From a bacterium (lineage in GTDB: Bacteria; Latescibacterota; Latescibacteria; Latescibacterales; Latescibacteraceae), in contig JAJFUH010000107.1 in assembly GCA_021372535.1 (NCBI GenBank), positions 5,768-69,767 on the forward strand: a stretch of 64,000 nt of DNA, given 5' to 3'. This document shows positions 6,420 to 27,053 of the stretch, piece after piece (position 1 is the first letter of the stretch; every line of letters begins with the position of its first letter). The notes beneath the pieces were generated by a model. It was not told the origin of the DNA. It saw only the letters and a list, made by a program, of their open reading frames with translations, and did not search any database. Position numbers and translations under genes: made by a program.

Positions 6420-6493
6420 TGCCCCGTCGTCCAATGGCAAGACAGCTGACTCTGGATCAGCCTATCGAGGTTCAAATCCTTGCGGGGCAGCCA
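6420..6493 (+). tRNA. tRNA-Gln (anticodon CUG)
   Basis: I folded it by hand. The acceptor stem is TGCCCCG/CGGGGCA, with the U1:A72 pair typical of bacterial tRNA-Gln. The anticodon stem is GCTGA/TCAGC with loop CTCTGGA, giving anticodon CUG. The T-arm is GAGGTTCAAATCCTT (GAGG/CCTT). G73 and CCA are encoded. Confidence 0.85.
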
Positions 6494-6514
6494 TAATAAA
6501 ACGAGTATTACCAG

Positions 6515-6551
6515 CCACTTACAGGATATTATGTGAGTGGTTTTTTGTTTT
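6515..6551 (+). terminator. Rho-independent terminator downstream of tRNA-Gln
   Basis: The hairpin CCACTTACA...TGTGAGTGG is followed by TTTTTTGTTTTT. Confidence 0.6.
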
Positions 6552-6937: not shown

Positions 6938-7010
6938 AATTGATCAATTTTGAGCAGATTTTCCTTGACTTTTAGCAATCAAGAAAGTAATATACACTCA
7001 ATTGATCAAA
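6938..7010 (+). promoter_or_regulatory. Candidate autoregulated promoter/operator of the BlaI-like repressor
   Basis: Palindromic AATTGATCAATT (6938–6949) and AATTGATCAA (7000–7009) boxes flank a TTGACT-17-TAATAT promoter (6965–6993). A TGATCA half-site lies at 7013–7018. Confidence 0.4.
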
Positions 7011-7039
7011 TATGATCAGTTCATTCGGAGAAAATAATT

Positions 7040-7435
7040 ATGAATAATAAAAACTTTCAACATTTTACAAAAGTAGAAATGGAATTCATGCAGATACTGT
7101 GGGATCACGGCGAACAATCACCTGAGGATATCAGGAGAATCTTAAAAGAGAATGGACGTGTACTGACTAACGGAGGAACAAGGAGAATTCTTTCAATTCT
7201 TTGCCGTAAAGGCCACATAACCCGAAGGAAAGAAGGAAGAAGTTACGTTTATAATCCAAACGTAAAGAAACAACAGGCATTCAAAGATATTCTTATTGAT
7301 CTCAGAAAACGGGTATTTGGTGATTCCGGTATAATAATGATTGCTGCGTTTCTTGACAGTTTCCATGCAAGTGATGATGAATTCAAAGAAATAAAACGTC
7401 TACTTGAGAATTATAAGAAGGATCGGGACAAGTGA
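7040..7435 (+). CDS. BlaI/MecI/CopY-family winged-helix transcriptional repressor
   Basis: The 131-aa protein has the penicillinase-repressor architecture. Its stop overlaps the start of a downstream M56-peptidase sensor, which is the canonical blaI–blaR1 pairing. The gene order is reversed relative to staphylococcal bla. Confidence 0.75.
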   Translation: MNNKNFQHFTKVEMEFMQILWDHGEQSPEDIRRILKENGRVLTNGGTRRILSILCRKGHITRRKEGRSYVYNPNVKKQQAFKDILIDLRKRVFGDSGIIMIAAFLDSFHASDDEFKEIKRLLENYKKDRDK

Positions 7436-10311
7436 CTTTATTTGAGATAGTGAATACTTTTAACAGGCTTGGTTTTTTAATATTCCGATATCTGGTGTCG
7501 TTTTTTTGGCAGTCTACTCTGTTTTTTGGAGCCGTACTTCTTGTTTTTATATTGTTTCGGAGGTTAAGCTCTTCAATAAAGCAGAGAATACTGTTTGTAT
7601 CTCTGTGCGCGATACCCCTTATTCCTTTAGTTTCGAAAACCGTCATAGATATAGGGGTGCCATATATAAGAATACCCGTGATACCCACATATTTTCCCCA
7701 GTCTGTGGTTTTTGACCGGATTATTCAGCCAACAGTAACTGAAAACCCTCTTGTTATCGGCGAATCAACCCGCCAGATCAATCCTGTTTACAAAAATACC
7801 ACTCTATCGAAATCAAACAGCCTCACATATGGCAGAATTATACTGTCTCACCCATGGATGTTCGTACTGTTAATATATATGGCAGTTCTGATATTGTTTC
7901 TTAAAAGAATAACGGCCAAATGGGTGGCTTTAAGGGCCTTGGCAGATTCCAGTACATATGATCTTGATCCGGAAACCAATCATATAGTACAGGAGGCATC
8001 TTCAAAAATAAAATGCAACCAGTCTTTCAGGGTTGTTGAGAACGAAGACATCGTATCTCCCATGGTTTTTGGCATTATAAAACCTGTTATCGTTATACCA
8101 AAAAGTGAAAAGTGGAATTTCTCAAGGTCTGATATGTATTTGATGTTTCTCCATGAGATTACTCATATAAAGAGAAAGGATCAACTTGTTTTCCTGATTG
8201 TCTCGATAATCAGAGCATTCTTCTTTTTCCATCCAGTCATCTGGATTGTTGCATGGCAACTTTTATTGTTGGCAGAGAAGTCTTGCGATGATTCGGTTCT
8301 CGATATACAGGAAAACCCCATCTCATACGCGTCGTTGTTGATTAAAATCATGGAAAATGCCAGAAATCAATCATTTAGTTTAAATGTCGCAGCAAATCTT
8401 GGTTTCCCGAAAAGTATGTTTTATAAAAGGATTATTTCTCTGCTCCTTGAGCACAAACACCATCAAAGAAAATATTCAATATTTGCAATAACTGCCTTTT
8501 TCGCCCTGCTGATCTCATCATATATCGTCACTGCCGCAATCCCACTGTCAGAATCGTTAAAAACATTGATCAACTCTAACAATTTAATGTCGAGATTTCT
8601 GATTTCGGAAAACATTGGTGTGAGAAATCAAATCCAGTATAATGCAACGGCTTATGCTGTCCCCCTTTATGGAATAACAATTGACGGTCGACTTGAAGAT
8701 TGGCCCCCAAACATGACACGGTATCCGATTCTGAATTATGGCAAAACATATGGCCCTACTGATATTGATTACGAAGATTTGAGTAAAAGCAGTGACCTGA
8801 GCCCACATTTCATGGTTGGCTACAATCCCGATAAAAACCTGCTCTACCTGGCTGTCATCGTTCGAGACGATATCATGTTTTCATTCAGTGAACATGCCAC
8901 CCTTTCGTTATTCGACTATCCCGATGCATGTGAAATCTATCTTTCGGGTAAGAAAAAGAACTCGATAATATCCATGAATGAAACCTTGACTGCAAATGAA
9001 TTGCCTGTTTTACAGTATGTAATGACCGCTTCAGGAATAATCTATAATAAAAATGTACCGAATACCGACATATCGAGGAACCCGATTCTTGTTATGGGTG
9101 ATATTACAAAGACAAAAACGCACGCGGTCAGCTCCAGGACTGGCGATGTCACCGTATATGAGTGGGAACTGGAGGTCTTTGATAAATACCCGGATAACAA
9201 AACACAGCTTATACCGGGTAAAACCATCGGCTTCGATGTTGCCGTTGTCGACAGGGATCATGAAGATGAATTCTCGGCATGGGGATGTTGGGGACCCTCC
9301 GGATATTTGAAAGTTGCAAATACATATCTGATAGGAGATATAGTCCTTTTAAGAGACAACAACAATTTTGGTTCTGTCACCGGCACCGTGGTCAATTCTC
9401 AAACCGGTCAGGGGATTTTCAAACAGATTATCGATGTTTACCGGCAGGGGAAACCAATTACCTGGACCATGAGTGATTCTGATGGAAAGTTTGGGATGCA
9501 GTTACCGGAAGGTCAATATGTCTTGAAACCACGCTATCATGATAAAGGGCATGAAATTGCCTTAACGGTAAAATCCGGCGAGTCGACGACAACGGACGTC
9601 ATGCTGGATATTACGAAAATTCCCGAAAAACTGCTGGAAACCATTAAACTGTATTCAAATCTATCCAGTTATTCCGATGTCACAGAAGTTAACGCTGTTA
9701 TGGGAATCCAGAATACAAAGATTGAATTCGCATTTAAAAATCCAAATTTTATGTATCAGAGTTATACAAGGATTGAAAACGGAGATAAATGTATAATATC
9801 ATGTGATGGAAGTAAAATGAGGGTAAATCGCGAGAATTCAGAAGAGTTCCTGGAAAAGAAAGCTCCCGGCGAACTCAGCGTATTTACAATCAGCTCGCTG
9901 ACAAACCAGCCTAGTGGCGGTTTTGTGCACCAGCTGATGCTATGCAGGGAACCGCTCAAACAACTGAATGAAGATCTCATCAGTGTTCGGTACCTCAGTT
10001 CCGACAGAATCGATGGTGTTGAATCTGACATTTTTGAGATAAACATGCGGGCGGGGACATTCACTACCTCGACTCGCTGGACACCGGATTATACAATCGT
10101 GTACCGTCTCTGGATAGGGAAACGGGATAAGGTAATCCGCAAAGTTGTGACAGAAATGGAGGAACGGCTGGATATTGCAAAAGCATCGGAAGATAATATG
10201 GTAACGAAAGTGAGACACTACTCCGTAACACATCGTCACCGCAAAATCAAACTCAATCCGAAGCTTATGGATACGTTATTCAAAGATAATCACAACCGTG
10301 TGGCAATATAG
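7432..10311 (+). CDS. BlaR1-like M56 peptidase signal transducer with a large C-terminal extracytoplasmic sensor region (CBM9/DOMON-like, carboxypeptidase-regulatory-like and LolA-like modules)
   Basis: N-terminal TM helices are followed by the HExxH motif FLHEITHIKRKD, typical of M56 BlaR1. A further ~650 aa follow. The DDSVEI/EFSAWG-type motifs resemble CBM9-like sugar-binding domains. There is no penicillin-binding domain. Confidence 0.7.
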   Translation: MTLFEIVNTFNRLGFLIFRYLVSFFWQSTLFFGAVLLVFILFRRLSSSIKQRILFVSLCAIPLIPLVSKTVIDIGVPYIRIPVIPTYFPQSVVFDRIIQPTVTENPLVIGESTRQINPVYKNTTLSKSNSLTYGRIILSHPWMFVLLIYMAVLILFLKRITAKWVALRALADSSTYDLDPETNHIVQEASSKIKCNQSFRVVENEDIVSPMVFGIIKPVIVIPKSEKWNFSRSDMYLMFLHEITHIKRKDQLVFLIVSIIRAFFFFHPVIWIVAWQLLLLAEKSCDDSVLDIQENPISYASLLIKIMENARNQSFSLNVAANLGFPKSMFYKRIISLLLEHKHHQRKYSIFAITAFFALLISSYIVTAAIPLSESLKTLINSNNLMSRFLISENIGVRNQIQYNATAYAVPLYGITIDGRLEDWPPNMTRYPILNYGKTYGPTDIDYEDLSKSSDLSPHFMVGYNPDKNLLYLAVIVRDDIMFSFSEHATLSLFDYPDACEIYLSGKKKNSIISMNETLTANELPVLQYVMTASGIIYNKNVPNTDISRNPILVMGDITKTKTHAVSSRTGDVTVYEWELEVFDKYPDNKTQLIPGKTIGFDVAVVDRDHEDEFSAWGCWGPSGYLKVANTYLIGDIVLLRDNNNFGSVTGTVVNSQTGQGIFKQIIDVYRQGKPITWTMSDSDGKFGMQLPEGQYVLKPRYHDKGHEIALTVKSGESTTTDVMLDITKIPEKLLETIKLYSNLSSYSDVTEVNAVMGIQNTKIEFAFKNPNFMYQSYTRIENGDKCIISCDGSKMRVNRENSEEFLEKKAPGELSVFTISSLTNQPSGGFVHQLMLCREPLKQLNEDLISVRYLSSDRIDGVESDIFEINMRAGTFTTSTRWTPDYTIVYRLWIGKRDKVIRKVVTEMEERLDIAKASEDNMVTKVRHYSVTHRHRKIKLNPKLMDTLFKDNHNRVAI

Positions 10312-10873
10312 TCATAAAAAACAAATATATATTGTTTTTTATGTTCTTATGGCAGTCTTGCTGTTTGCATGCAATAATATCATGATTTTATAATTCGGCA
10401 GAAAACAGGCTTCATACATCATTCTCAGGATTCGATGTAACAAATCGCTGTAATGTTTCATCAAAGTGGTGAAATTGTATGTAATCGGTATTAAATACGC
10501 CCCAAAGTGATCAATATTGATCATTTCAAAAGAAACTATTATAAGGATTAAAAAAGTTCCATTCAATCATCTTTAAAGAGGCTTTATCACCTCATGAAAG
10601 AATGGAGAGTCAGCTTGTTCCGTATGAACGTACATAGTGAAAAATCATTCTTTAGCAATCTTGTTGAATTCTGGAGACACGTATTTCGAGATTCAGATTC
10701 GTTGACGGGCGACAATTACTTGGTCAGCAAAGACGAATACGAAGAAATTGAACTGTTGTTTCGCAGCCCCGGTAAAGAACGTACGAGTGGTATAGAGAAT
10801 GAATAACCTGGATTTAAACATTGAAAAGAATTCCGGGCCATAAAATGTATAATGAAAAAAGGAGGTATCTGCC

Positions 10874-11965
10874 GTGAAAAAAAATCTGAAAATGGAATTT
10901 CTGCTCTTATTAGTTATTCTCCTCGTTTTTGCGTGTCTGTCCTTGCCGGTTTCCGGCGAAAATCATGATTATCAGAACGGTGTAAATCCTCAACGTAACG
11001 TACTTGTGGAAGCATTCACGGGTTCATGGTGTAGAAATTGCACAGTAGATATATTGACTGTTGAAAGGTATGTAAGAACGCATAGTAATATCTTTATGCT
11101 GGCGTATCATTTCAATGATCAGATGGCCACAGAAGATATCGAGGTGGTTATTTTCAGATTTACTGACGCATTTCCAGGTTTTGCTGTGGACAGGACTGTT
11201 TATAAAGACCTTAATTCCCTTGTTGCGAGAATGAACAACTGTGCTCAAAAAATTGAGGAGAGGTTATTGATTCCGCCCCGAATGACAATCGATCTGAGTT
11301 ATACGTATTCTCCTGAATCAAGACTGATCGATCTCGATGTCGCTCTTCATACCCTTGAGACAATCGATGCGAATTGTTATCTCCATATCGTTGTTGCTGA
11401 GGACAGCCTTAAATATCCGCAGCAAGGGGGAGCCGATCCATTCTACCACATGCATACCGTGCGCGACTTTATAACGGGAACAGACGGCGAACGGCTTAAC
11501 GATTCTGTACTCGCGGAGGGAACCGATATTCACAGGAATTATGCATACACACTGCAAAGCAAATTCAAACCTGAGAAAATCCGCATCGTTGTATTTGTCA
11601 GCGAAGGAATCGTGGGACCGGTGTGCCAGGCCGAGGAGCTGGTTCTCGTCGAGAACATCGTGACCAGGGTCGATGAATTGACCCCGGATACGTTCCGGGT
11701 GCACGCACCCTATCCTAATCCTTTCAATCCCGTAACAACGATCGAGTTTACTCTTCCCTCGGAATCGCATGTCAGCCTTGTAATGTATGATGTGCTGGGA
11801 AGAGTCGTCGATATTCCCGTTGATCGAACCTTGAGTACCGGGACACACCGGATCGTATGGGACGGCCGCGACAGAAAGGGTATCACGCTTGCTGATGGAC
11901 TGTATCTGTTCCGGCTTACTGCCGGAAATCATATAGCTCATGGGAAAGTGACACTTCTCAGATGA
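10874..11965 (+). CDS. Secreted T9SS cargo protein with an N-terminal CxxC thioredoxin-like (Omp28-related) domain and a C-terminal Por secretion sorting domain
   Basis: It has a signal peptide and the motif EAFTGSWCRNC. The C-terminus (YPNPFNPVTTIEF...GLYLFRLTAG...KVTLLR) matches the T9SS type-A CTD (TIGR04183-like). It is a paralog of 14323..16074 (shared YHMHxVRxxITGTxGERLN). Confidence 0.7.
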   Translation: MKKNLKMEFLLLLVILLVFACLSLPVSGENHDYQNGVNPQRNVLVEAFTGSWCRNCTVDILTVERYVRTHSNIFMLAYHFNDQMATEDIEVVIFRFTDAFPGFAVDRTVYKDLNSLVARMNNCAQKIEERLLIPPRMTIDLSYTYSPESRLIDLDVALHTLETIDANCYLHIVVAEDSLKYPQQGGADPFYHMHTVRDFITGTDGERLNDSVLAEGTDIHRNYAYTLQSKFKPEKIRIVVFVSEGIVGPVCQAEELVLVENIVTRVDELTPDTFRVHAPYPNPFNPVTTIEFTLPSESHVSLVMYDVLGRVVDIPVDRTLSTGTHRIVWDGRDRKGITLADGLYLFRLTAGNHIAHGKVTLLR

Positions 11966-12066
11966 TTGGTAAAAAAAACTTTTCGATTATGGTTTATGAA
12001 TACCATGAGATATTCCGGAATAAATCCATCAATCGGCATAGACAATTTCCACCAAAGGAGAGAGAG

Positions 12067-14238
12067 ATGAGAACTTCAAGGCTGATTTTTATGGCGATCA
12101 TGATTATAACTGTATCACAAGCTCTGGCGCAGGGAACGTGGACGCAATACCCGATAAGAATTGAAAAAATACAAGATATTGTGGTAAAAGACGGCGAATT
12201 ATGGTGTTCTTCGGAACGTAGAGTTTTTACGGTAAATCCATCGACAATGGAGTATAATGAGATTTTTAATGCTGGTTCTGATTATACAGGTGAAATTGAA
12301 AAGAGCACTACAGGTGATGTTTTAGTTGGCCTTGCCACAAAACAGTTCGTGTTTAAAAACGGTACATGGAAAAAAATCCAATATTCAGAACCCAATTCCG
12401 ATATCAGATATCCTGGAGCAGAATACTATGTACCATTTTGTTATGACCCTGACGGGATATGCTGGATGGCGGGCCATGGGATCGGGTTGATTCGTTTTGA
12501 CGGAGAGAAATATTCCAAAGTACCGGATGTTGAGTTTCTCCCGGATGATCGGGTAAAATCAATATTTGCCGGAAGTGATGGCAGAATATGGATCGGTACT
12601 AAAATAGGATTATATTGCTACGACAGAGAATCCGTGGAAAAACTGAGTTATAGCAAGGATAATCCTGAATATCGTGTTAAATGCATAGCGGAGGGATCGG
12701 ATGGTTCAATCTGGATAGGTACTCTGGATGATGGTATATTTAATTACAAAGACGGCTCGTGGAGCCACTATATTCCGGAGAGCAACGGAATTAAATATTT
12801 TGGCACCGGCTCATTACTCGTGGATGATACAGGGAACCTCTGGGCTTCATTAGTTCCTGTGAACTTTGAATGTAATAATCCTAATTCAACGCTTTTTAAG
12901 TTCGACGGTGAAACCTGGTATTCCTACCCCGATCCTGTTACCGCTAAATTAGTGGTGAAGTCATTAACACTCGCTCCTGACGGCACTATATGGGCAGGGA
13001 CGTACAATCAGATTTCTGATAAAGATGCCGGTATACTGCAATTTGACGGCAAAAAGTGGACAAATCACTTCTACAGTGAATTCATACCTCGTAACTTATA
13101 TATATATGGTCTCTTATACCACGATGGTTCATTACTACTGGCAACTGAAAACGAAGGATTATACCAGTATGATGGTACATCGTGGTCACACATCGTAAGC
13201 CCGTTTACCGATGCCAGGTCTGTCGCTGTTTCATCCGATAACAAAATATGGGTAGCAACAAAAGAAAAGCTTTACCGAAATGATGATTCATCATGGAAAC
13301 CTTTTACTTCAAACATGCTGACCGATAATAATATAATAAATCAAATCGCTGTCGGTTCCGATGGAATCGTATGGTGTATGACAAAGAACGGCCTTGTGCG
13401 TTTTGATGGTTCCGTCTGGAAATTGCAGGGTGAGAGCGACGGTATTCCCGATGGGGTCCTTTCAACTATTGCGGCTGATCCTTCCGGCCATATCTGGTTA
13501 GCCTGGTATACTTTTATATCCGATGAATTAATAAGTGGTATTACTGTTTATGATGGTGAAAAATGGACGGAAACGGGAATACCGGATAATTCGAAAGCGT
13601 CCACGGCTATCAATAAAATCATTTTCGGTCCCGAAGGTGAACCCTGGGCCGTCAGCTATAATGAACTTTTCAGATATGACGGTGCAAAATGGGTGAAAGA
13701 ACCGTATGAGTACCGGCAAATAATGGATATCACCTGTGATTCGGAAGGATATCTCTATATAAGAAATGAGATGGGAGTTGACTGTTATAATGGTGAAAGT
13801 AGAATGACCTATATCACTGGCATAGATGTCCCGAATTTGTCCTTTCTGGCAGCAGGTGATAAAGGTATGGTTTTTGGCGTGATGAGAGACGGTGTTTTCG
13901 CGCGGTTCGATCCTTACCGGATTCCAACGGTCGTCGATGAACCATATATAACAACTCCCGGTACATTCCCGATTGTTGGCAATTATCCGAATCCGTTCAA
14001 TATGTCGACAACCGTCTATTTCGAGCTGCCGTCGGAAACGCTGGTCGATCTTGCGATATTCTCAGTTACGGGACAGAAGATACGGACGCTGGTTTCCGAA
14101 CGGAAGAATCCCGGCAGGCATGTAATCGTATGGGACGGTCGCGATGATTTTGGCCGGAACGTATCTTCCGGCATCTATATAAGCCGTCTGCTCGGGGGAG
14201 AACTTACCGCATCATCACGCATGATGTTGTTAAAGTAG
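12067..14238 (+). CDS. Secreted Reg_prop beta-propeller repeat protein with a T9SS C-terminal sorting domain
   Basis: The ORF track gives 11962..14238. The likely start is the Met at 12067 (MRTSRLIFMAIMII..., signal peptide). It has many DG.IW.GT..GL repeats. The CTD is YPNPFNMSTTVYFELP...GIYISRL. Confidence 0.7.
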   Translation: MRTSRLIFMAIMIITVSQALAQGTWTQYPIRIEKIQDIVVKDGELWCSSERRVFTVNPSTMEYNEIFNAGSDYTGEIEKSTTGDVLVGLATKQFVFKNGTWKKIQYSEPNSDIRYPGAEYYVPFCYDPDGICWMAGHGIGLIRFDGEKYSKVPDVEFLPDDRVKSIFAGSDGRIWIGTKIGLYCYDRESVEKLSYSKDNPEYRVKCIAEGSDGSIWIGTLDDGIFNYKDGSWSHYIPESNGIKYFGTGSLLVDDTGNLWASLVPVNFECNNPNSTLFKFDGETWYSYPDPVTAKLVVKSLTLAPDGTIWAGTYNQISDKDAGILQFDGKKWTNHFYSEFIPRNLYIYGLLYHDGSLLLATENEGLYQYDGTSWSHIVSPFTDARSVAVSSDNKIWVATKEKLYRNDDSSWKPFTSNMLTDNNIINQIAVGSDGIVWCMTKNGLVRFDGSVWKLQGESDGIPDGVLSTIAADPSGHIWLAWYTFISDELISGITVYDGEKWTETGIPDNSKASTAINKIIFGPEGEPWAVSYNELFRYDGAKWVKEPYEYRQIMDITCDSEGYLYIRNEMGVDCYNGESRMTYITGIDVPNLSFLAAGDKGMVFGVMRDGVFARFDPYRIPTVVDEPYITTPGTFPIVGNYPNPFNMSTTVYFELPSETLVDLAIFSVTGQKIRTLVSERKNPGRHVIVWDGRDDFGRNVSSGIYISRLLGGELTASSRMMLLK

Positions 14239-14322
14239 ATTGATACGTATGAAATAACAACCGTTCGTCTTTGCAGGATGGACGGTTGTTGATTTTCAGC
14301 CGCGAAGTGACCGTAAAGAGAT

Positions 14323-16074
14323 ATGAACCTTATCGAAAAGGCATCTGTCGTGAAATCAGAGTCGTATACCATGTTTTTCATATATACGCTGGTGTTTTTA
14401 ATAGCTTTGTTTCATGCCGGGACAGCGGTTTCGGGCGATAACTACGAACCGAATGATTCGAGAGAAACGGCATACGAAATATCTTTTTCCGATGGTGTAT
14501 GGAAATCCGAAACGGCAACGATCGACACCCGGGAAGATGCCGACTGGTATTCGTTTTACGGGGAAAGCGATAGTTTCATTTCTATTTCATCCGATCCCAT
14601 TACAAAGTTCGACATTGCTTTTTCTCTCTATTACGGCGATTCAAGACTCACCTGCGCCGACAATTATTTCAGCGGTATGGCTGAAAAAATCGTAAAATAT
14701 CCGCTTGGTAAGGACGGGATATACTATATATGTGTCGGAACTCCCGAATCGACAAAAAAGAGAACCACTACCGATACGGATTCGTTCGGCTCGTATTCAC
14801 TCGAAATAACACTGTATAAAAGTCATACCATTTCCGGAAAAGTAACTGATTCACAAACGGGAAACGCGATATCGTCGGCACGGATCACTGTCGAACATGA
14901 TACCTCATATACAGCCGAGACAGATGTCGATGGAATGTTTGAAGTTATCCTGAAAGGAGCCCTCTCAGGCGAACCATTTGCCATACAGGTTCAAAAAACC
15001 GGCTATATTGCCGAGATTGCCAAAGGGATTGTATCAAATGCAAAGGAAACTGCCGTATCGATAGAACTCGCCCCACTTCCGGACAATTCCCGCAATGTCC
15101 TCCTTGAAGAATTCACCGCAACCTGGTGCACGTGGTGCCCGTATGCTACCGATATACTTGAAGAGATAATCCGCAGCCAGGGCAATGTTATCTCCATTGC
15201 GTACCACATTGAAGATGAAATGAGCACACCCGAAGGAGATCAGCTTGACGATATGTTAAGTCCGGCGCTTCCTCAGGCATTGATCGACAGGACACAATTC
15301 ACTGGAAGCAGTTCCATCCTGGTCAATCGTCAGGAATGGACAAAGCGATGCATCGAACGCTCACAGGTGCCGGCTCCTCTTTCGATCCATATTTCATGCG
15401 ATTATACAGGCTCGTCACGAAATGCTGATGTGACCGTTGACATGCTTTCCCTTTCCGATATGAAGGGAGCGTACAGGATCAATGTGGTTGTCTGCGAAGA
15501 CAGCCTTGATTATGAGCAGCATATCACCGGAAAAGACTATAAAACGATTTCTCCTTACTACCATATGCATGTCGTTCGCCGGATGATTACGGGAACATAT
15601 GGCGAACGGTTAAATACCGATCCGATTCAGGCGCAGACAAATATCCGGAAATACTATTCGTTCACGCTCGATGATTCGATTAATGAAAACTACGCTCGTC
15701 TTGTGGTATTCGTCAATGAAGATTTAAAAAACGGCCTGGGACCAGTGCAGCAGGCTGCACAGTGTACTATTATGGAAGACACGATAACGGAAGTCGAAAT
15801 CGACGAGCGAATCGCCTTTCAGATTCATCCGGCATTCCCGAATCCATTCAATACTACAACGATGATTCCATTCACTCTGACACAGGATAAACACATAGTG
15901 CTGACTGTTTATAACATTGTTGGAGAAAAAGTAACGACACTGACCGACCGTATCTGGCCACCGGGTAAGCATTCCATAATTTGGGATGCTCATGGATTTT
16001 CCAGCGGAATATATTTTTACCGGCTACAGGCGGGTGCGTCGATAGGCACGGGGAAAATGCTGCTGATCAAGTGA
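14323..16074 (+). CDS. Secreted multidomain T9SS cargo protein with PPC-like, carboxypeptidase-regulatory-like and CxxC thioredoxin-like (Omp28-related) domains plus the T9SS CTD
   Basis: It has the EPNDSRETAYEI PPC-type motif, a CxxC motif (EEFTATWCTWCPYA), and the CTD FPNPFNTTTMIPFTL...GIYFYRLQAG. The start may be the Met at 14371. Confidence 0.65.
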   Translation: MNLIEKASVVKSESYTMFFIYTLVFLIALFHAGTAVSGDNYEPNDSRETAYEISFSDGVWKSETATIDTREDADWYSFYGESDSFISISSDPITKFDIAFSLYYGDSRLTCADNYFSGMAEKIVKYPLGKDGIYYICVGTPESTKKRTTTDTDSFGSYSLEITLYKSHTISGKVTDSQTGNAISSARITVEHDTSYTAETDVDGMFEVILKGALSGEPFAIQVQKTGYIAEIAKGIVSNAKETAVSIELAPLPDNSRNVLLEEFTATWCTWCPYATDILEEIIRSQGNVISIAYHIEDEMSTPEGDQLDDMLSPALPQALIDRTQFTGSSSILVNRQEWTKRCIERSQVPAPLSIHISCDYTGSSRNADVTVDMLSLSDMKGAYRINVVVCEDSLDYEQHITGKDYKTISPYYHMHVVRRMITGTYGERLNTDPIQAQTNIRKYYSFTLDDSINENYARLVVFVNEDLKNGLGPVQQAAQCTIMEDTITEVEIDERIAFQIHPAFPNPFNTTTMIPFTLTQDKHIVLTVYNIVGEKVTTLTDRIWPPGKHSIIWDAHGFSSGIYFYRLQAGASIGTGKMLLIK

Positions 16075-16089
16075 AAGCATGGAGAAACA

Positions 16090-16611
16090 GTGATGAACAA
16101 GTATAAATCGTTTGCAACGGTATTCGTTATCTCGTTTTGTTTTTTTGTTCTGCCATATTCTCGATCGTATGCCCGGTCACCTGTCATACCTTTCTCATTC
16201 AAAACGTTGACAAACGAAATCATGCCTGTTGATTCCCTTCTTCAGAAAGGACCGGTACTGATAACATTCTGGGCAATGTGGTGCAAACCGTGCAAGGAAG
16301 AACTGCATGCGCTCAGCAAGGTACATTCCGAGTATCCTTTTGATTCCATTACGATAGTATCCGTGACAATCGATACTCCGCGAAGCATAGACCGTGTCAA
16401 ATCCTATGTTAAAACTCACAATTTCCCTTTTATATGCAGTACCGATCCCGGTAAAGAAATACTGAGAATCTTCAACGTTTCAGGGATTCCCTTTACGGTG
16501 ATTCTCAATAAAAAGCGGGAAGTGATCATGATGCATTCCGGATATGTCCCCGGTGATCTGGACGAATATGGAAAAAAAATCGAAAGCTGTCTGAAAACAG
16601 GAAAAGAATGA
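16090..16611 (+). CDS. TlpA/ResA-like periplasmic thiol:disulfide oxidoreductase (thioredoxin fold)
   Basis: It has a signal peptide and the WAMWCKPC active-site motif, with the size of TlpA-like thioredoxins. Its stop overlaps the start of the next gene. Confidence 0.75.
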   Translation: MMNKYKSFATVFVISFCFFVLPYSRSYARSPVIPFSFKTLTNEIMPVDSLLQKGPVLITFWAMWCKPCKEELHALSKVHSEYPFDSITIVSVTIDTPRSIDRVKSYVKTHNFPFICSTDPGKEILRIFNVSGIPFTVILNKKREVIMMHSGYVPGDLDEYGKKIESCLKTGKE

Positions 16612-18215
16612 ACAATATCGAGAAATACATAATAACGCTTCTTCTTTTTACAATCATACCGGTTCGTGCGTTCGCTTCACTGCCTTCCGTATCCGTCTCG
16701 AACTATTTCCGCTACGGTTTTGGCAACGAGATCATGAATTATAGAAATGAGGACAAGAAATATCTTGAAGAAAAAATCGCTGTTAATATTCACTGGAACC
16801 GTTTTCTGCTCGGCGGACGATATGATTATGACAATCCACCGGAATTTGGTTTTGAACATAGAAAACTGAGAAAATGGTATCTTGAATACAGGAAGGGACA
16901 ATGGAAACTCAGGGGAGGCACGTTCGCGGCCCTTTTTTCAAGGGGTCTGGTTTTAAACGCATACGAAGAGGAAATGATCGGTCATGACAGCGAAATTACC
17001 GGCGTAAACGCGCTGTATGAAAACGAACGCACAACGGTAAATATACTTGCCGGAAGCATGGATTATGAGATGATTCCGGATTTCAGGGATATCGTAACCT
17101 ATAACCTGCGCGGCGGTTCGATACGGAAAAAACTCATCGATTGGTACGCTGTCGGAGGCAGTTTCATACGGAGCGACCTGACCCAGAAAATCGGATATTA
17201 TAAGGTTAAGGACAAATTTTACGTAAATACAGCGGAGTTATGGTCGGAGATTGAAACAGACAATTTCAAGTTGTATGGCGGTATGGCATCAAACTCCCAT
17301 GAAAACAGAGGTCTTTTCACAGAGGGTGAAAACAGCGTATATGTTTCGCTCAACATGAATCTGCCCTCCACAAATGTCAACATTGAGTTCAAAAACTATA
17401 AATTCGGATTGACAACTCCTGAATATTGGGATTACACCCTGTATCGTCACCGGATGCTCGCATTTCAGAATCCTCCCACAGTAGTAAGAGAACACAGCTG
17501 GGTGCTGCTTTCACGACGCACACACAGTGTCAGTTTCAATGATGAGGTCGGTATGCAGTTCGACCTCTATCACAGACTATACCCTGAAACTACGCTCAAC
17601 CTTAACGGATCCGTTGCCGGAAAGCATTACCGGTATGATATGAATGAGTTCGGGGATTTTTCACGCAGAAAAAAGAATTTATCGTGGATACCGTCGCTCG
17701 ATCCCGAATATTCTCCGTTCTGGCAGGTATATGGTGAAGTTGAACACTACTTCCCGAATGGCAGTTCCATTACTGGTGGATTAGCCTATACGTTTGAGAG
17801 GATTTACAACTACTATATACCGGATGTCAGGGAGGAAAACAGGTCGTGTATCATACCCGTCCGGTTTATCTTTCAGCTGCCCGACTTGTATTCGTTACAG
17901 GGCACGGTAGAATATCAGAAATTTAAGGAAACCCTTCACGGCGACCAGTATTTTACCAACAGTTACTTTTCGTTTGGGATAGGCAAATCGCCTTACCTGA
18001 CAGCGGCAGTCGATGCTGAATATGTCACGAAAGGGTACGAGTATGATGATAAAACGCTGTGGTTGATTGGTACAATTCGTTATTGTTTCCGTTCGAGCCA
18101 GATTTTTGAAATAGGATATGGCGAGACACGAGGTGGACTTGTCTGCACGAACGGACGGTGCCGTTATGTTCCGGAATACAAGGGTTGGCGCTTTTCCGCC
18201 GAGATTCACTTCTGA
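16608..18215 (+). CDS. Putative outer-membrane beta-barrel protein of unknown function
   Basis: It has a signal peptide, alternating amphipathic segments rich in Y/G/F, and a C-terminal Phe (…AEIHF), as is typical of OMP barrels. It is the last gene of the T9SS-cargo/thioredoxin operon. Confidence 0.5.
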   Translation: MNNIEKYIITLLLFTIIPVRAFASLPSVSVSNYFRYGFGNEIMNYRNEDKKYLEEKIAVNIHWNRFLLGGRYDYDNPPEFGFEHRKLRKWYLEYRKGQWKLRGGTFAALFSRGLVLNAYEEEMIGHDSEITGVNALYENERTTVNILAGSMDYEMIPDFRDIVTYNLRGGSIRKKLIDWYAVGGSFIRSDLTQKIGYYKVKDKFYVNTAELWSEIETDNFKLYGGMASNSHENRGLFTEGENSVYVSLNMNLPSTNVNIEFKNYKFGLTTPEYWDYTLYRHRMLAFQNPPTVVREHSWVLLSRRTHSVSFNDEVGMQFDLYHRLYPETTLNLNGSVAGKHYRYDMNEFGDFSRRKKNLSWIPSLDPEYSPFWQVYGEVEHYFPNGSSITGGLAYTFERIYNYYIPDVREENRSCIIPVRFIFQLPDLYSLQGTVEYQKFKETLHGDQYFTNSYFSFGIGKSPYLTAAVDAEYVTKGYEYDDKTLWLIGTIRYCFRSSQIFEIGYGETRGGLVCTNGRCRYVPEYKGWRFSAEIHF

Positions 18216-18406: not shown

Positions 18407-18453
18407 TGACTCTGGATCAGCCTATCGAGGTTCAAATCCTTGCGGGGCAGCCA
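18407..18453 (+). repeat. Direct repeat of the tRNA-Gln 3' half (from the anticodon stem to CCA). It is a candidate attR.
   Basis: Its 47 nt are identical to 6447..6493. The downstream ~60 bp, including a terminator hairpin, are about 85% identical to the sequence downstream of the intact tRNA-Gln. Confidence 0.9.
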
Positions 18454-18474
18454 TAATAAAACAAATATTATCTG

Positions 18475-18507
18475 CCGCTTGCAGGGTGTTTTGCAAGTGG
18501 TTTTTTT
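18475..18507 (+). terminator. Rho-independent terminator (a repeat-associated copy)
   Basis: The hairpin CCGCTTGCA...TGCAAGTGG is followed by TTTTTTT. It is homologous to the terminator at 6515..6551. Confidence 0.6.
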
Positions 18508-18945
18508 ATACTATTCCTTATTTCTTTTTATTAATTTCAGTAGTACTATCTGATTGTACATTAATTAGTAGAATCAAAAAGAATAAAAGCATACATCTGG
18601 CCTGAACTGTTTATACCTTTTTAGGTCCTTAAAGTCCGCTGCATTTGTATCTCTGTGTTCCCCGAAAAGATTCCCTTCATGAATCTGATAGAATGTCCTT
18701 CATAATCTCATGGTAGATATCTGTTTATCTTTTTTGCTGCCGCCGGAACATCCCATTTAAATTTTTTATTTTTTCCTCAATATTTTAAACGATAAATAAT
18801 AAAAATGCTTGACAATATATATTAAAGTGGTAGATTTGTTACCAATGTGGTGATGTAGCTACTTATATGGTATTCAACTAATAAAATTTGTAGAATTTCT
18901 GATATTAATAAATTAAATTCAACATTTATAAGGAGTTGAAAAGAT

Positions 18946-19620
18946 ATGAATTCATGTGTGCGAGTTTTTTTATTTCTGACCATCATGTGTAGTGTATTGA
19001 TTGTATCTGTCCATGCAGATGATCAACCTATTATAAATTTACAAGAAGGTAGAAATGAGATTTCCTTTTCAATCAAGAACGGATGGGATTATGATCTCAG
19101 TGGCCTTAAATTGGAGGTTAATGAGGAAAAGATTCCTTCATGGCTGAAGATAACAGTGTTGAAAAATGAAATAAATATTCCGCAGAAAATGAGTGGGAAT
19201 ATAACATTGAACTTCAACATCAGTCATGCTCCGGATGGTTCCATAGCTGAGATTCCTTTTATTATAGTCGATAGTAATAATAACCAATGGAGTTATTACC
19301 TTAAAATTGGTGTAAGTTCAAATGAAAATTCAGCGCCTCACCCCATAGATATTCTCTATGGTAACTTTCCCAATCCATTTAATCCATCTACGACTATCAC
19401 GTATTCGCTTGCAGAAACAAGATTGACGAAGCTTGTAATCTATAATTCACTCGGCCAAAAAGTTAAAACGTTACTTAATGAATCACAGGAAGCAGGAATA
19501 CATACCATTCAATGGGACGGACGGAATGAGTTCGGGCAGAAAGTTTCGAGCGGTATCTACCTCTATCAATTAATATCGGGTTCATTTATTGAAAGCAATC
19601 GCATGATTCTATTGGAATAA
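18946..19620 (+). CDS. Small secreted protein with a T9SS C-terminal sorting domain
   Basis: It has a signal peptide and the CTD FPNPFNPSTTITYSL...GIYLYQLISG...MILLE. Confidence 0.65.
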   Translation: MNSCVRVFLFLTIMCSVLIVSVHADDQPIINLQEGRNEISFSIKNGWDYDLSGLKLEVNEEKIPSWLKITVLKNEINIPQKMSGNITLNFNISHAPDGSIAEIPFIIVDSNNNQWSYYLKIGVSSNENSAPHPIDILYGNFPNPFNPSTTITYSLAETRLTKLVIYNSLGQKVKTLLNESQEAGIHTIQWDGRNEFGQKVSSGIYLYQLISGSFIESNRMILLE

Positions 19621-19636
19621 CAATAAGAGGGAGAAC

Positions 19637-21109: not shown

Positions 21110-21151
21110 CTGGAATAAATTTAATTTTCGAAAACATAAAGGATTTCACCT

Positions 21152-22561: not shown

Positions 22562-22578
22562 TTTGGAATGATATATTC

Positions 22579-22740
22579 ATGGTACAGATGAATAATGATT
22601 TTTTCCCGCTAAACTTCGAAGATCGATCATTTGAAACGCAAAACCTTAGAAATAGAGTTATGGAAATTGTTAAAGATCTTTCTGAAGAAGATTTATACTA
22701 TCTTATGGAAATACTTAAACTTACAATAAGAACTGAATAA
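22579..22740 (+). CDS. Possible small acidic protein (53 aa) lying between the C39-like gene and blaI-2
   Basis: It is an ATG-initiated ORF, MVQMNNDFFPLNFEDRSFETQNLRNRVMEIVKDLSEEDLYYLMEILKLTIRTE. It falls below the ORF-track threshold and I see no homology. Confidence 0.2.
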   Translation: MVQMNNDFFPLNFEDRSFETQNLRNRVMEIVKDLSEEDLYYLMEILKLTIRTE

Positions 22741-22834
22741 GTTTGAAAGTTGGATTGTAAGCGGATGCATAATAGTGTTAATTTAATATGGTATTTTGTA
22801 TAATATAACTTAAAACATAAATATAGGAGCAATC

Positions 22835-23215
22835 ATGAAAGTAGGTGTCGGTTTACTTGGCGAACTTGAATGGGCAGTTATGAAAACGTGTTGGGATAAA
22901 GGCAAAACAACCGCGCGAATAATCTTCGAGGAAATAAAAAAAACAAGAAATATACAATACCAAACGATAAAGACAACCCTCGACAGATTAGTCCAAAAAG
23001 GGTATCTCGTACGAGAGAAGTTTGGTCCTATTTGGCTTTATTCTTCCACGGTTACTGAAACGACATTGACATCAAAAGCAATTGAAAGCTTTGCTCAGAC
23101 TGTTTTTGGTAATGCTATTGCGCCGGTTTTTATTCACCTTTTAAAGAAAAAAAAGTATACCCATGAAATCGAAGAACTGAAAAAGATTATCAATGAAATT
23201 GAAGAGGAGGACTGA
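22835..23215 (+). CDS. BlaI/MecI/CopY-family transcriptional repressor (second copy)
   Basis: The 126-aa winged-helix protein is followed immediately by an M56 peptidase gene. Confidence 0.7.
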   Translation: MKVGVGLLGELEWAVMKTCWDKGKTTARIIFEEIKKTRNIQYQTIKTTLDRLVQKGYLVREKFGPIWLYSSTVTETTLTSKAIESFAQTVFGNAIAPVFIHLLKKKKYTHEIEELKKIINEIEEED

Positions 23216-23266
23216 GCCATAGAATCAATCATTTCGACAATAGTTTCGGCCAGCCGGATTGTATGG

Positions 23267-24601: not shown

Positions 24602-24604
24602 ACT

Positions 24605-24958: not shown

Positions 24959-24993
24959 TAATTATATTAATAAATTACAGGAGGTTATATTCT

Positions 24994-25959: not shown

Positions 25960-25969
25960 ATTCTTAAAT

Positions 25970-26716: not shown

Positions 26717-27053
26717 GGGTAACGCTTTTCAAGGATGTTTACGCTATAAATCAAAATTTCTTTTCGAAAACTTATTTATGAATAGTAGTATCTTGTTATG
26801 CTGTAATAATAAAGAACAAAAAATCTTGTATATAGGACTTAACAGGCGTTATAATTTTATCCCTTTTCTTTACCCTGACTCACCCCTCGATTCCCTCTAT
26901 ATGACATAGTAACTCTTGACCAAAGAGAGAGGAGAAGCGCCCGATAAAATATTTTTATCAAGGTATTATGCGCGAAGTGAGTTTCCACGGTTAACGTCGG
27001 AAATTATTATATTCTTCTGCTAATAAATGATGCGCACTACTTTTTCCCCCCTC

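What the first reader, a model, noticed from the sequence alone, without database searches (positions are those of the whole stretch)
10874..18215. Six-gene operon combining T9SS-secreted CxxC thioredoxin-like cargo proteins, a TlpA-like oxidoreductase and an OM barrel: a candidate cell-surface redox module
Genes 10874–18215 are co-directional, with overlaps or gaps of 85 nt or less. Two paralogous T9SS cargo proteins carry a CxxC thioredoxin-like, Omp28-related domain (WCRNC and WCTWCPYA), with shared YHMHxVRxxITGTxGERLN blocks. A third T9SS cargo is a Reg_prop propeller. They are followed by a periplasmic TlpA-like thioredoxin (WCKPC) and a predicted OM beta-barrel. T9SS delivery of thioredoxin-fold proteins to the cell surface is not a well-characterised system. 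The module rides on the tRNA-Gln island.
Basis: partly seen in the sequence, partly recalled or inferred. Interest (0 to 1): 0.6.

Follow-up and report, generated by a model that had tools for sequence, protein, structure and literature searches.

The report
Surface thioredoxin module on tRNA island
A 12-kb mobile island carries five genes for cell-surface thioredoxin-like proteins related to the known HBP35 of Porphyromonas, together with a periplasmic reductase and a large outer-membrane barrel; these three parts sit together in many bacteria but have not, as far as I could find, been described as a unit.

Summary
The observation largely holds, with one error. 10874-18215 has five co-directional genes, not six.

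- **g1 and g3:** paralogues (35% identity) with a CxxC thioredoxin-like half, an Omp28 beta-sandwich and a T9SS type-A sorting domain.
- **g2:** a Reg_prop propeller with a T9SS sorting domain.
- **g4:** a TlpA/ResA-class WCKPC thioredoxin.
- **g5:** a DUF6029 protein, modelled as a 24-stranded outer-membrane barrel.

The claim that T9SS delivery of thioredoxin-fold proteins is uncharacterised is wrong. g1 and g3 belong to the family of P. gingivalis HBP35, a model T9SS cargo with proven CxxC-dependent thioredoxin activity. HBP35 is by far the best structural match (5Y1A, E 1.8e-17).

What appears undescribed is the partnership:

- A TlpA-like gene lies directly upstream of DUF6029 in 76 of 76 informative genome loci.
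- A CxxC Omp28/HBP35-like gene lies directly downstream in 56 of 76. It carries either a T9SS sorting domain or a lipoprotein signal.
- Every barrel keeps a C-x4-C pair, predicted at an extracellular hairpin tip.

The module and a BlaI/BlaR1 pair lie between exact 56-nt direct repeats of the tRNA-Gln 3' half, 11,960 nt apart.

The mechanism is inferred: a periplasm-to-surface thiol-redox module coupled through the barrel.

The parts
6420..6493 (+). tRNA-Gln (CTG), the integration target
   Evidence: ARAGORN; Rfam tRNA, 54 bits.
6447..6546 (+). Left copy of the direct repeat (attL-like): the 3' half of tRNA-Gln plus the downstream terminator hairpin
   Evidence: The 100-nt repeat is 89% identical and its first 56 nt are exact. 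Spacing is 11,960 nt. A terminator-like hairpin lies at 6513-6542.
6941..7018 (.). Two copies of the palindrome TGATCA-N4-TGATCA just upstream of blaI; candidate BlaI operators
   Evidence: Only 3 matches occur in the 64-kb window, against 0.44 expected. None of 100 shuffles reached 3.
7040..7435 (+). BlaI-type repressor
   Evidence: Pfam Penicillinase_R, 75.9 bits.
7432..10311 (+). BlaR1-type M56 sensor-protease with a large extracytoplasmic part
   Evidence: Pfam Peptidase_M56, 108.5 bits. BlaI/M56 pairs also flank the homologous modules in L001 and L091.
10508..10523 (.). Third copy of TGATCA-N4-TGATCA, in the 563-nt gap before g1; candidate operator of the module promoter
10874..11965 (+). 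g1: HBP35-like T9SS cargo with a signal peptide, a thioredoxin-like half (WCRNC), an Omp28 beta-sandwich and a type-A sorting domain
   Evidence: The public annotation (P0055, 280 aa) starts at M84 and omits the signal peptide and the CxxC.
11962..14238 (+). g2: Reg_prop beta-propeller T9SS cargo; probable true start near 12067
   Evidence: Reg_prop 86.5 bits; TIGR04183 24.5 against 23. Orthologues lie next to the module in L001, L003 and L091.
14323..16074 (+). g3: the larger paralogue, with PPC-like and CarboxypepD_reg domains, a thioredoxin-like half (WCTWC), an Omp28 domain and a sorting domain; probable true start near 14371
16090..16611 (+). g4: periplasmic TlpA/ResA/StoA-class thiol-disulfide oxidoreductase (WCKPC) with a signal peptide
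16608..18215 (+). g5: DUF6029 outer-membrane barrel, overlapping g4 by 4 nt, with an invariant C513-x4-C518
   Evidence: Pfam 100.8 bits. AF2 model pLDDT 88.9, pTM 0.82. Foldseek hits are ushers and TonB-dependent transporters. Cys pair conservation.
18407..18506 (+). Right copy of the direct repeat (attR-like): a tRNA-Gln 3' half without the 5' half, plus a strong terminator hairpin at 18474-18501

Best explanation
This is a mobile, expanded copy of a conserved three-part envelope thiol-redox module of the FCB-group bacteria.

**Shown by sequence or model**
1. g1 and g3 are HBP35-family proteins. Each has a genuine thioredoxin-type CxxC half fused to an Omp28 beta-sandwich, and each carries a T9SS type-A sorting domain that should place it on the cell surface.
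2. g4 is a signal-peptide-bearing TlpA/ResA-class thioredoxin with a CxPC motif, the motif typical of the reductive branch.
3. g5 is a 24-stranded barrel without a plug domain. It has an invariant C-x4-C pair predicted at the tip of its last extracellular hairpin.
4. tlpA and DUF6029 are always adjacent. The CxxC Omp28-like gene is usually the next gene.
5. The whole set, with a BlaI/BlaR1 pair, lies between tRNA-Gln direct repeats.

**Inferred**
- TlpA is kept reduced from the cytoplasm by a CcdA/DsbD-type membrane protein encoded elsewhere.
- The barrel couples the periplasmic reductant to the surface CxxC proteins. It could let reducing power reach the surface, either through its Cys hairpin or by housing TlpA in its lumen. 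Alternatively, it could admit a substrate that the surface proteins have captured and reduced.
- The surface proteins reduce or bind an extracellular ligand, as HBP35 does with insulin disulfides and hemin in vitro.
- The Reg_prop propeller is an accessory surface binding protein.
- BlaR1 senses an envelope or extracellular signal and relieves BlaI repression at the TGATCA-N4-TGATCA sites.
For: **Domains**
- g1 aligns to HBP35 over residues 40-217, with its CxxC on HBP35 C48 and C51.
- Foldseek's top hit is 5Y1A at E 1.8e-17; the next hits are near 1e-8 and cover Ig-like parts only.
- The secondary-structure order is b1-CxxC-a1-b2-a2-Pro-b3-b4-a3.
- The thioredoxin half matches the TlpA profile with CxxC in register.
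- HBP35 is a T9SS surface protein whose thioredoxin activity needs C48 and C51 (PMC2907840, PMC4674972).

**Gene linkage**
- TlpA-DUF6029-Omp28 sets occur in 7 of 10 contigs looked up by exact protein. Of the other three, L092 has a divergent homologue with no Pfam hit and L007 and L088 have none. Gene order and flanks differ between contigs.
- Among 80 genome loci, TlpA lies upstream in 76 of 76 informative cases. In two of these the automatic count missed it because the ORF calls overlapped.
- A CxxC Omp28-like gene lies downstream in 56 of 76 loci. Its CxxC was found by pattern in 52 of 56 and by eye in further ones.
- The barrel C-x4-C is present in 80 of 80 loci and in 114 of 116 full-length 50%-identity representatives.
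- A distant subfamily keeps the triad. There the Omp28-like partner has no Pfam hit on record, yet matches the profile at 98.2% probability with CxxC aligned.

**Two anchoring routes for the partner**
- Partners with a sorting domain have ordinary signal peptides.
- Partners without one carry a lipoprotein Cys followed by E-S-N-D in 33 of 36 full-length cases. None of the 17 with a sorting domain has this motif.
- This resembles the acidic lipoprotein export signal of Bacteroidota (PMC5080379).

**Barrel topology**
There are 24 strands. Turns of 2-5 residues lie on the side of the N and C termini, and the long loops lie opposite.

**Island and regulator**

Against: - No experiment and no complex model links the three proteins physically.
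- About a quarter of the loci (20 of 76) have the TlpA-DUF6029 pair without an adjacent Omp28-like gene. There the pair sits among housekeeping genes. The pair therefore has a role that does not strictly need that partner.
- The barrel Cys pair may simply be a structural disulfide stapling a hairpin.
- No CcdA/DsbD gene lies nearby in any locus inspected.
- The dipeptide inside the CxxC of the Omp28-like proteins varies widely, so the redox potential and direction are unknown.
- Many of the 80 loci are related Ignavibacteria with shared synteny (nuoH, pgi). The counts are therefore not independent events.
- No T9SS machinery gene lies in the window.
- The physiological role of the thioredoxin domain of HBP35 itself is still unknown (PMC2907840).
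Confidence: 0.55

Rival explanations
1. This is a haem (or metal) acquisition module of the HBP35 type. The surface Omp28/HBP35-like proteins capture hemin or a metal through the conserved Cys, His and Asp residues. The DUF6029 barrel is the uptake channel. TlpA acts in the periplasm, for instance by keeping apocytochrome or chaperone thiols reduced, as ResA, CcmG and TlpA do.
For: - HBP35 binds hemin, and its mutant grows poorly without hemin (PMC2907840).
- H, D, E and R residues are invariant near the CxxC and in the sandwich.
- g4's best NCBIfam hits are ResA and StoA.
- In L007 the pair is followed by ccmB and nrfHA. In L006 a multihaem cytochrome follows the triad.
Against: - The barrel has no plug domain or TonB box; its first strand starts 4 residues after the signal peptide.
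- No haem-uptake genes or TonB/ExbBD genes lie nearby.
- R169 of the subfamily is not conserved in HBP35.
- The cytochrome neighbours appear in only 2 loci.
- ResA and TlpA equivalog cut-offs are far from met: 63.7 against 170, and 36 against 230.
Confidence: 0.15
2. DUF6029 is a dedicated translocon or docking barrel for its thioredoxin-fold neighbours. It would form a plug-and-barrel or usher-like complex that exposes the Omp28-like lipoprotein (or TlpA itself) at the surface. The redox chemistry would be incidental to the barrel's role.
For: - The barrel has 24 strands, and its best structural matches are the FimD and PapC usher pores.
- It has no plug domain of its own.
- Most Ignavibacteria partners are lipoproteins with an export-signal-like CESND.
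- tlpA and DUF6029 overlap by 4 nt.
Against: - Partners with a sorting domain already have the T9SS as their export route.
- 20 of 76 loci lack the partner.
- TM-scores to ushers are only about 0.45-0.5, which indicates generic large-barrel similarity.
Confidence: 0.12
3. DUF6029 is a polysaccharide-export porin, as proposed from HHpred similarity to the Wzi barrel. The thioredoxin genes would then be unrelated neighbours.
For: One paper notes HHpred similarity between Wzi-barrel homologues near OPX genes and DUF6029, and suggests a polysaccharide role (PMC9603273).
Against: - None of the loci looked up or scanned has OPX, Wzx, Wzy or ABC polysaccharide genes beside DUF6029.
- The invariant neighbour is TlpA, in 76 of 76 loci.
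- The model has 24 strands rather than Wzi's 18.
Confidence: 0.04
4. There is no integrated function. g1-g3 are ordinary T9SS surface proteins that happen to sit beside a housekeeping TlpA-DUF6029 pair on an island.
For: - The pair exists without the partner in 20 loci.
- Many T9SS cargo genes cluster in these genomes.
Against: The CxxC Omp28-like gene is adjacent in several lineages despite different gene order, different flanks, two different anchoring signals and a divergent subfamily.
Confidence: 0.1

Closest known systems
HBP35 (PG0616/PGN_0659) of Porphyromonas gingivalis, PDB 5Y1A
   Same: - It has an N-terminal thioredoxin-like CxxC domain, a beta-sandwich and a T9SS C-terminal sorting domain.
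- g1's cysteines align with the catalytic C48 and C51.
- It is the top structural match, at E 1.8e-17.
- It is displayed on the surface through the T9SS and has thioredoxin activity in vitro (PMC2907840, PMC4674972).
   Different: - Sequence identity is only about 18%.
- The window subfamily has its own invariant residues, for example R169, which is Leu in HBP35.
- No TlpA/DUF6029 partnership has been reported for HBP35, and I could not inspect its locus.
- g3 has extra PPC-like and CarboxypepD_reg domains.
- Hemin binding was not tested here.
Omp28 lipoprotein family (Pfam PF11551, PDB 2R2C; NCBIfam NF033782, and the NF045500 Omp28-related selenoprotein)
   Same: - The Pfam Omp28 domain is above cut-off in g1 and g3.
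- NF033782 aligns over almost the whole thioredoxin-plus-sandwich region.
- Ignavibacteria partners are lipoproteins like Omp28.
- The existence of a selenoprotein relative fits a redox-active site.
   Different: - g1 and g3 score 63 and 88 bits against a cut-off of 150 for NF033782.
- They score 25 and 23 bits against a cut-off of 200 for NF045500.
- They are anchored by a T9SS sorting domain, not by lipid.
TlpA/ResA/StoA/CcmG extracytoplasmic thiol-disulfide reductases
   Same: - g4 has a signal peptide and a WCxPC motif.
- Its Pfam thioredoxin-family hits are above cut-off.
- Its best solved relatives are StoA, ResA and DsbE-like proteins, at E 1e-12 to 1e-15.
   Different: - It is below every equivalog cut-off.
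- Its fixed partner is an outer-membrane barrel, not cytochrome-maturation or Sco/CoxB genes.
Large outer-membrane barrels: chaperone-usher pores (FimD, PapC), TonB-dependent transporters, LptD-LptE plug-and-barrel
   Same: g5 has a comparable barrel size, at 24 strands. The top Foldseek hits are FimD and PapC pores, followed by BtuB, Cir and OprC.
   Different: - It has no plug domain, no TonB box and no periplasmic usher domains.
- TM-scores are only about 0.45-0.5.
- No PDB sequence relative was found at E up to 1.
tRNA-integrated genomic islands
   Same: - Direct repeats of the tRNA 3' half bound an 11,960-nt segment.
- The segment has lower GC than its left flank.
   Different: - No integrase or other mobility gene lies inside.
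- Low GC continues for a further 8 kb or so beyond the right repeat.

Membership tests
HBP35-type T9SS thioredoxin-like cargo | Thioredoxin-type CxxC at the start of helix 1, aligned with catalytic C48 and C51 of HBP35 | tested here: met
   phmmer alignment, AF2 secondary structure, hhalign to the TlpA family with CxxC in register.
HBP35-type T9SS thioredoxin-like cargo | Overall fold resembles the solved HBP35 structure | tested here: met
   Foldseek against the PDB: 5Y1A is rank 1 at E 1.8e-17, TM 0.55/0.59. The next hit is at 1.5e-8.
HBP35-type T9SS thioredoxin-like cargo | T9SS type-A C-terminal sorting domain | tested here: met
   TIGR04183 scores 28.3 (g1) and 30.5 (g3) against a cut-off of 23.
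HBP35-type T9SS thioredoxin-like cargo | Disulfide-reductase activity and hemin binding | not testable with these tools
   Biochemical properties, reported for HBP35 in PMC2907840.
T9SS substrate | T9SS machinery (PorK/L/M/N, Sov, PorU/V) present in the same genome | tested here: inconclusive
   No such gene lies in the 64-kb window. The rest of the genome was not available. Four proteins with sorting domains in the window imply a T9SS.
Omp28 lipoprotein subfamily (NF033782) | Score above the curated cut-off of 150 bits, plus a lipoprotein signal | tested here: not met
   63.4 and 87.9 bits. g1 and g3 have ordinary signal peptides and a sorting domain.
Omp28-related selenoprotein (NF045500) | Score above 200 bits, with selenocysteine in the redox motif | tested here: not met
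   25.4 and 22.8 bits. Both motifs are Cys-x-x-Cys.
TlpA/ResA-class extracytoplasmic thioredoxin | Thioredoxin fold with WCxxC, exported | tested here: met
   AhpC-TSA 52.4, Thioredoxin_8 43.9 and Redoxin 42.7 bits, all above cut-off. WCKPC motif and N-terminal signal peptide.
ResA or TlpA equivalogs | Curated equivalog or subfamily score | tested here: not met
   ResA 63.7 against 170; TlpA 36 against 230; DsbE 35.7 against 123.
DUF6029 (PF19494) | Pfam gathering score | tested here: met
   100.8 bits against 27, covering profile positions 46-538.
TonB-dependent transporter | N-terminal plug domain and TonB box | tested here: not met
   The first barrel strand starts at residue 27, right after the signal peptide. 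There are no Plug or TonB_dep_Rec Pfam hits.
Polysaccharide-export porin (Wzi-like) | Genomic pairing with OPX, Wzx, Wzy or ABC export genes | tested here: not met
   None was found in the window or in any inspected locus.
tRNA-integrated genomic island | Direct repeat of the tRNA 3' end bounding a compositionally distinct segment | tested here: met
   The exact 56-nt repeat has 0 matches expected by chance. GC is 0.38-0.46 inside and 0.52 on the left.
tRNA-integrated genomic island | Integrase or recombinase gene inside the element | tested here: not met
   All ORFs of 80 aa or more between the repeats are assigned to other families.
BlaI/BlaR1 signal-transduction pair | Penicillinase_R repressor next to a Peptidase_M56 membrane sensor | tested here: met
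   75.9 and 108.5 bits. The blaR1_generic equivalog scores 98.6 against 400 and is not met.

The most novel reading that the evidence does not exclude
TlpA and DUF6029 form an outer-membrane-spanning thiol-disulfide relay. The small reductant enters or docks in the wide plug-less 24-stranded barrel. It passes reducing equivalents to HBP35-like oxidoreductases anchored on the cell surface, either directly or through the barrel's invariant extracellular C-x4-C hairpin. This would be an outer-membrane counterpart of DsbD. It would explain how a cell-surface thioredoxin such as HBP35 can be recycled.
Probability: 0.2. Interest if true: 0.9.

Novelty: new variant of a known kind. Interest (0 to 1): 0.6.

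Why it matters
HBP35 has been used for 15 years as a model T9SS cargo. Its authors state that the physiological role of its surface thioredoxin domain is unknown, and no electron source outside the outer membrane is known.

A conserved genetic partnership between HBP35/Omp28-like CxxC surface proteins, a reductive-type periplasmic thioredoxin and a large cysteine-bearing barrel gives that question a concrete, testable candidate pathway. It also assigns a first functional context to DUF6029, a family of about 1,000 clusters at 50% identity.

The module sits on a small tRNA island with its own BlaI/BlaR1 switch. This suggests it is an inducible, transferable trait.

Tried and rejected
- **Exact look-up of g5 in the contig index:** it found nothing, although an identical protein is in the protein collection (P0001).
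- **Homologue search with the g1 domain alone:** this gave only 2 hits because of the word index. It was solved with an 8-sequence profile.
- **Riboswitch or RNA leader before g1:** no Rfam match.
- **Integrase or further tRNA fragments:** none found. The tRNA-Gln repeat is absent from the related loci, and no tRNA genes were found in the six related loci scanned, L001-L003 and L005-L007.
- **The TGATCA-N4-TGATCA motif:** it is not shared by other loci, so it is specific to this island.
- **Extra conserved neighbours in Ignavibacteria:** these proved to be housekeeping synteny (nuoH, PTS enzyme I, pgi, comEA-like, mnmE, dnaN), not functional partners.
- **Other readings of the barrel:** TonB-dependent transporter, usher and Wzi-type readings were rejected on missing defining parts.
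- **The L088 neighbour with a sorting domain:** it is not an Omp28 homologue.
- **Model coordinates:** these are not returned by the tool, so Cys-His-Asp distances and the exact position of the barrel hairpin could not be measured.

Full report
**1. What is in the sequence**

Region 10874-18215 holds five + strand ORFs of 80 aa or more, not six:

| Gene | Coordinates | Length |
|---|---|---|
| g1 | 10874-11965 | 363 aa |
| g2 | 11962-14238 | 758 aa |
| g3 | 14323-16074 | 583 aa |
| g4 | 16090-16611 | 173 aa |
| g5 | 16608-18215 | 535 aa |

- Junctions by longest ORF are -4, +84, +15 and -4 nt.
- Gene lengths in the 71%-identical locus L001 (726 and 566 aa) and the position of the signal peptides suggest later starts. 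g2 would start near 12067 and g3 near 14371, giving gaps of about 101 and 132 nt.
- No convincing terminator lies in the gaps. The strongest hairpin on this strand, with 12 pairs, is at 18474-18501, after g5.

**2. Domains**

- **g1:** Omp28 (57.2 bits against 34.9), FlgD_ig, and TIGR04183, the T9SS type-A sorting domain (28.3 against 23).
- **g3:** PPC-like and CarboxypepD_reg domains, Omp28 (84.6 bits), and TIGR04183 (30.5).
- **g2:** Reg_prop propeller (86.5 bits) and TIGR04183 (24.5).
- **g4:** AhpC-TSA, Thioredoxin_8 and Redoxin, all above cut-off. Its motif is WCKPC and it has a signal peptide. Its nearest solved relatives are StoA, ResA and DsbE-like proteins.
- **g5:** DUF6029 (100.8 bits against 27).
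- g1 and g3 are paralogues, with 35% identity over 333 aa and E 8e-68.

**3. The CxxC domain is thioredoxin-like and belongs to the HBP35 family**

- phmmer against the PDB aligns g1 residues 40-217 with 5Y1A, P. gingivalis HBP35. g1's CRNC falls on HBP35's C48-G-Y-C51. g3 hits Omp28 (2R2C) and several thioredoxins at its CxxC.
- An AF2 model of mature g1 was built from 81 sequences and has pLDDT 86. Its order of elements is strand 15-22, CxxC at 25-28 opening helix 28-40, strand 45-52, helix 59-68, Pro73, strands 74-77 and 80-81, then helix 88-103. A beta-sandwich follows at 109-229, and the sorting domain at 260-333.
- Pro73 is invariant across the 81 sequences. Glu18 in strand 1 and both cysteines are conserved in at least 90%.
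- From textbook knowledge of thioredoxin, Pro73 and Glu18 correspond to the cis-Pro and the buried acidic residue (Asp26 of E. coli Trx).
- hhalign of the N-terminal half against 80-odd TlpA neighbours gives 88.6% probability and E 2.6e-6, with CxxC in register.
- Foldseek against the PDB puts 5Y1A first at E 1.8e-17. All other hits are near 1e-8 and cover only Ig-like parts.

HBP35 is a classic T9SS cargo. It is glycosylated on the cell surface. It reduces insulin faster than E. coli thioredoxin, and that activity is abolished by C48S/C51S. It binds hemin and is needed for growth without hemin (PMC2907840; reviewed in PMC4674972).

**4. The barrel**

- The AF2 model of g5 has pLDDT 88.9 and pTM 0.82.
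- Reading the DSSP string gives 24 strands. The turns on the side of the N and C termini are 2-5 residues long. The loops on the other side are longer: 23, 48 and 32 residues at 107-129, 265-312 and 339-370. This is the usual outer-membrane protein pattern.
- The protein ends in ...EIHF.
- The family's most conserved motifs, FQNPP and FNDEVG, lie in the 48-residue extracellular loop.
- There is no N-terminal plug domain.
- Foldseek finds only generic large barrels: FimD and PapC ushers, then TonB-dependent transporters, with TM 0.45-0.5. phmmer finds no PDB relative.
- C513 and C518 are invariant in the 50-sequence alignment. They flank the turn between the last two strands. By the topology above, that turn is an extracellular hairpin tip.
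- A C-x4-C is present in 80 of 80 genome loci, and in 114 of 116 full-length 50%-identity representatives.
- The family has 1,053 such representatives at E of 1e-10 or better.
- The only paper that mentions DUF6029 suggests a Wzi-like polysaccharide role from HHpred (PMC9603273). No polysaccharide-export genes were found beside it here.

**5. Conserved neighbourhood**

Exact-protein look-ups of DUF6029 homologues show the following.

| Locus | DUF6029 identity to g5 | Arrangement |
|---|---|---|
| L001 | 71% | Same five genes in the same order, plus a BlaI gene |
| L002 | 46% | TlpA - DUF6029 - Omp28 with sorting domain |
| L003 | 41% | TlpA - DUF6029 - Omp28 with sorting domain - three Reg_prop cargoes - two S8 peptidases with sorting domains |
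| L090 | 42% (Latescibacterota) | TlpA - DUF6029 - Omp28 with sorting domain |
| L091 | 41% | BlaI - BlaR1 - two Reg_prop cargoes - TlpA - DUF6029 - Omp28 with sorting domain - Reg_prop cargo |
| L005 | about 30% (Melioribacteraceae) | The triad |
| L006 | about 30% | The triad, with a lipoprotein Omp28 |
| L007 | about 30% | The pair, followed by ccmB and nrfHA |
| L092 | distant subfamily | TlpA - DUF6029 - a 411-aa protein with no Pfam hit |

- The 411-aa protein in L092 matches the Trx-Omp28 profile at 98.2% probability, with CxxC aligned.
- A profile scan of GTDB species genomes gave 80 loci, mostly Ignavibacteria. I scanned their ORFs with my own HMMs.
- A WCxxC TlpA-like gene lies directly upstream in 76 of 76 loci with enough DNA. 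It is mostly WCEPC, WCTPC, WCSPC, WCVPC or WCKPC.
- A Trx-Omp28 gene lies directly downstream in 56 of 76. Of these, 18 have a sorting domain and 38 do not.
- The 20 loci without the partner sit among housekeeping genes such as RNase G, dnaN and recF.
- Other recurrent neighbours in Ignavibacteria (nuoH, pgi, PTS enzyme I, mnmE) reflect shared ancestry. The raw counts therefore overstate independence.
- The stronger evidence is recurrence across rearranged orders, different flanks and a divergent subfamily.

**6. Two anchoring routes**

- Partners with a sorting domain have ordinary signal peptides.
- Partners without one begin with a lipoprotein signal whose Cys is followed by E-S-N-D in 33 of 36 full-length cases. 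None of the 17 with a sorting domain has this motif.
- This resembles the polar-plus-acidic lipoprotein export signal that sends Bacteroidota lipoproteins to the cell surface, with consensus QKDDE, SDDDD or SDDFE (PMC5080379).
- It is an inference that both routes place the CxxC domain on the cell surface.

**7. Island and regulation**

- The 3' half of tRNA-Gln plus its terminator (6447-6546) is repeated at 18407-18506. The first 56 nt are exact, the 100 nt are 89% identical, and the spacing is 11,960 nt. No match is expected by chance.
- GC falls from 0.52 to 0.38-0.46 inside.
- Between the repeats lie only BlaI (7040-7435), a BlaR1-type M56 sensor (7432-10311) and g1-g5. No integrase is present.
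- Low GC continues to about 27 kb, where there is a second BlaI/BlaR1 pair. This suggests tandem accretion of islands.
- The palindrome TGATCA-N4-TGATCA occurs three times in 64 kb: twice just before blaI and once in the gap before g1. The expected number is 0.44, and none of 100 shuffles reached 3. It is a candidate shared BlaI operator.
- Rfam finds no leader RNA.

**8. Mechanism**

Shown:
- The domain identities.
- The thioredoxin geometry.
- The HBP35 relationship.
- The barrel model.
- The gene linkage.
- The island.

Inferred:
- A reductive-type TlpA, presumably fed by a CcdA/DsbD encoded elsewhere, works with the barrel and with surface CxxC proteins as a periplasm-to-surface thiol-redox module.
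- How the barrel couples them is open. It could relay electrons through its extracellular Cys hairpin. It could house TlpA in a plug-less lumen. It could import a ligand captured by the surface proteins.
- The haem or metal-uptake reading rests on the HBP35 precedent and two cytochrome-linked loci. It lacks TonB features.

**9. Verdict**

- The redox interpretation is supported at the domain level.
- The stated novelty is not, because HBP35 is known.
- The TlpA-DUF6029-Omp28/HBP35-like triad, its invariant barrel cysteines, the dual anchoring and the tRNA island with BlaI/BlaR1 appear undescribed in the searchable literature.
- I class it as a new variant of a known kind, with interest 0.6.

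Noticed in passing
window 6447-6546 and 18407-18506: A direct repeat covers the 3' half of tRNA-Gln plus its terminator. The first 56 nt are exact, and the spacing is 11,960 nt. It bounds an integrase-less island. The two terminator hairpins differ by paired substitutions that keep the stem.
   Followed up: yes
window 6941-6956, 7003-7018, 10508-10523: The palindrome TGATCA-N4-TGATCA is found only at these three places in 64 kb: before blaI and before g1. It is a candidate BlaI operator. It is absent from all related loci.
   Followed up: partly
window 10874-11122 (first 83 codons of g1): The public annotation of this gene (P0055, 280 aa, 'Omp28-related outer membrane protein') starts at M84. 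It therefore omits the signal peptide and the CxxC motif, which are homologous to HBP35.
   Followed up: yes
window 18500-27000: A second low-GC stretch (0.35-0.39) lies beyond the right repeat. It holds a small cargo with a sorting domain (18946-19620) and a CBM9+TPR protein (19637-21109). It also holds a C39 peptidase-DUF1573 protein (21152-22561), a second BlaI/BlaR1 pair (22835-24601) and an HATPase protein. It may be a second island accreted in tandem.
   Followed up: partly
L019-L087 (Ignavibacteria loci), gene downstream of DUF6029: Omp28-like partners without a sorting domain start with a lipoprotein Cys followed by the near-invariant E-S-N-D (33 of 36). This may be the lipoprotein export signal of this lineage.
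   Followed up: partly
window 18144-18161 (g5 residues 513-518) and all DUF6029 homologues: An invariant C-(T/S/A)-(N/S)-G-x-C lies near the C-terminus of every DUF6029 protein examined. It is predicted at the tip of the last extracellular hairpin.
   Followed up: partly
window 4483-6327: A 614-aa Reg_prop propeller protein lies just upstream of tRNA-Gln, outside the island. It is distantly related to g2 (25% identity, E 8e-17).
   Followed up: partly
L003 700-7760: The homologous module in this contig is preceded by TIR, a transposase and a SIR2-HerA pair (defence-type genes). There too it lies in a variable region.
   Followed up: no
L007 9678-13119 and L006 10959-13427: In two Ignavibacteria loci the TlpA-DUF6029 pair or triad is followed by ccmB plus nrfHA, or by a large multihaem cytochrome. 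This is a weak hint of a link to haem or cytochrome c biogenesis.
   Followed up: no
window 50306-57127: A 2,273-aa hybrid histidine kinase has at least eight PAS domains, a GAF domain and a receiver domain. It is followed by a sigma-54 activator (57117-58529).
   Followed up: no
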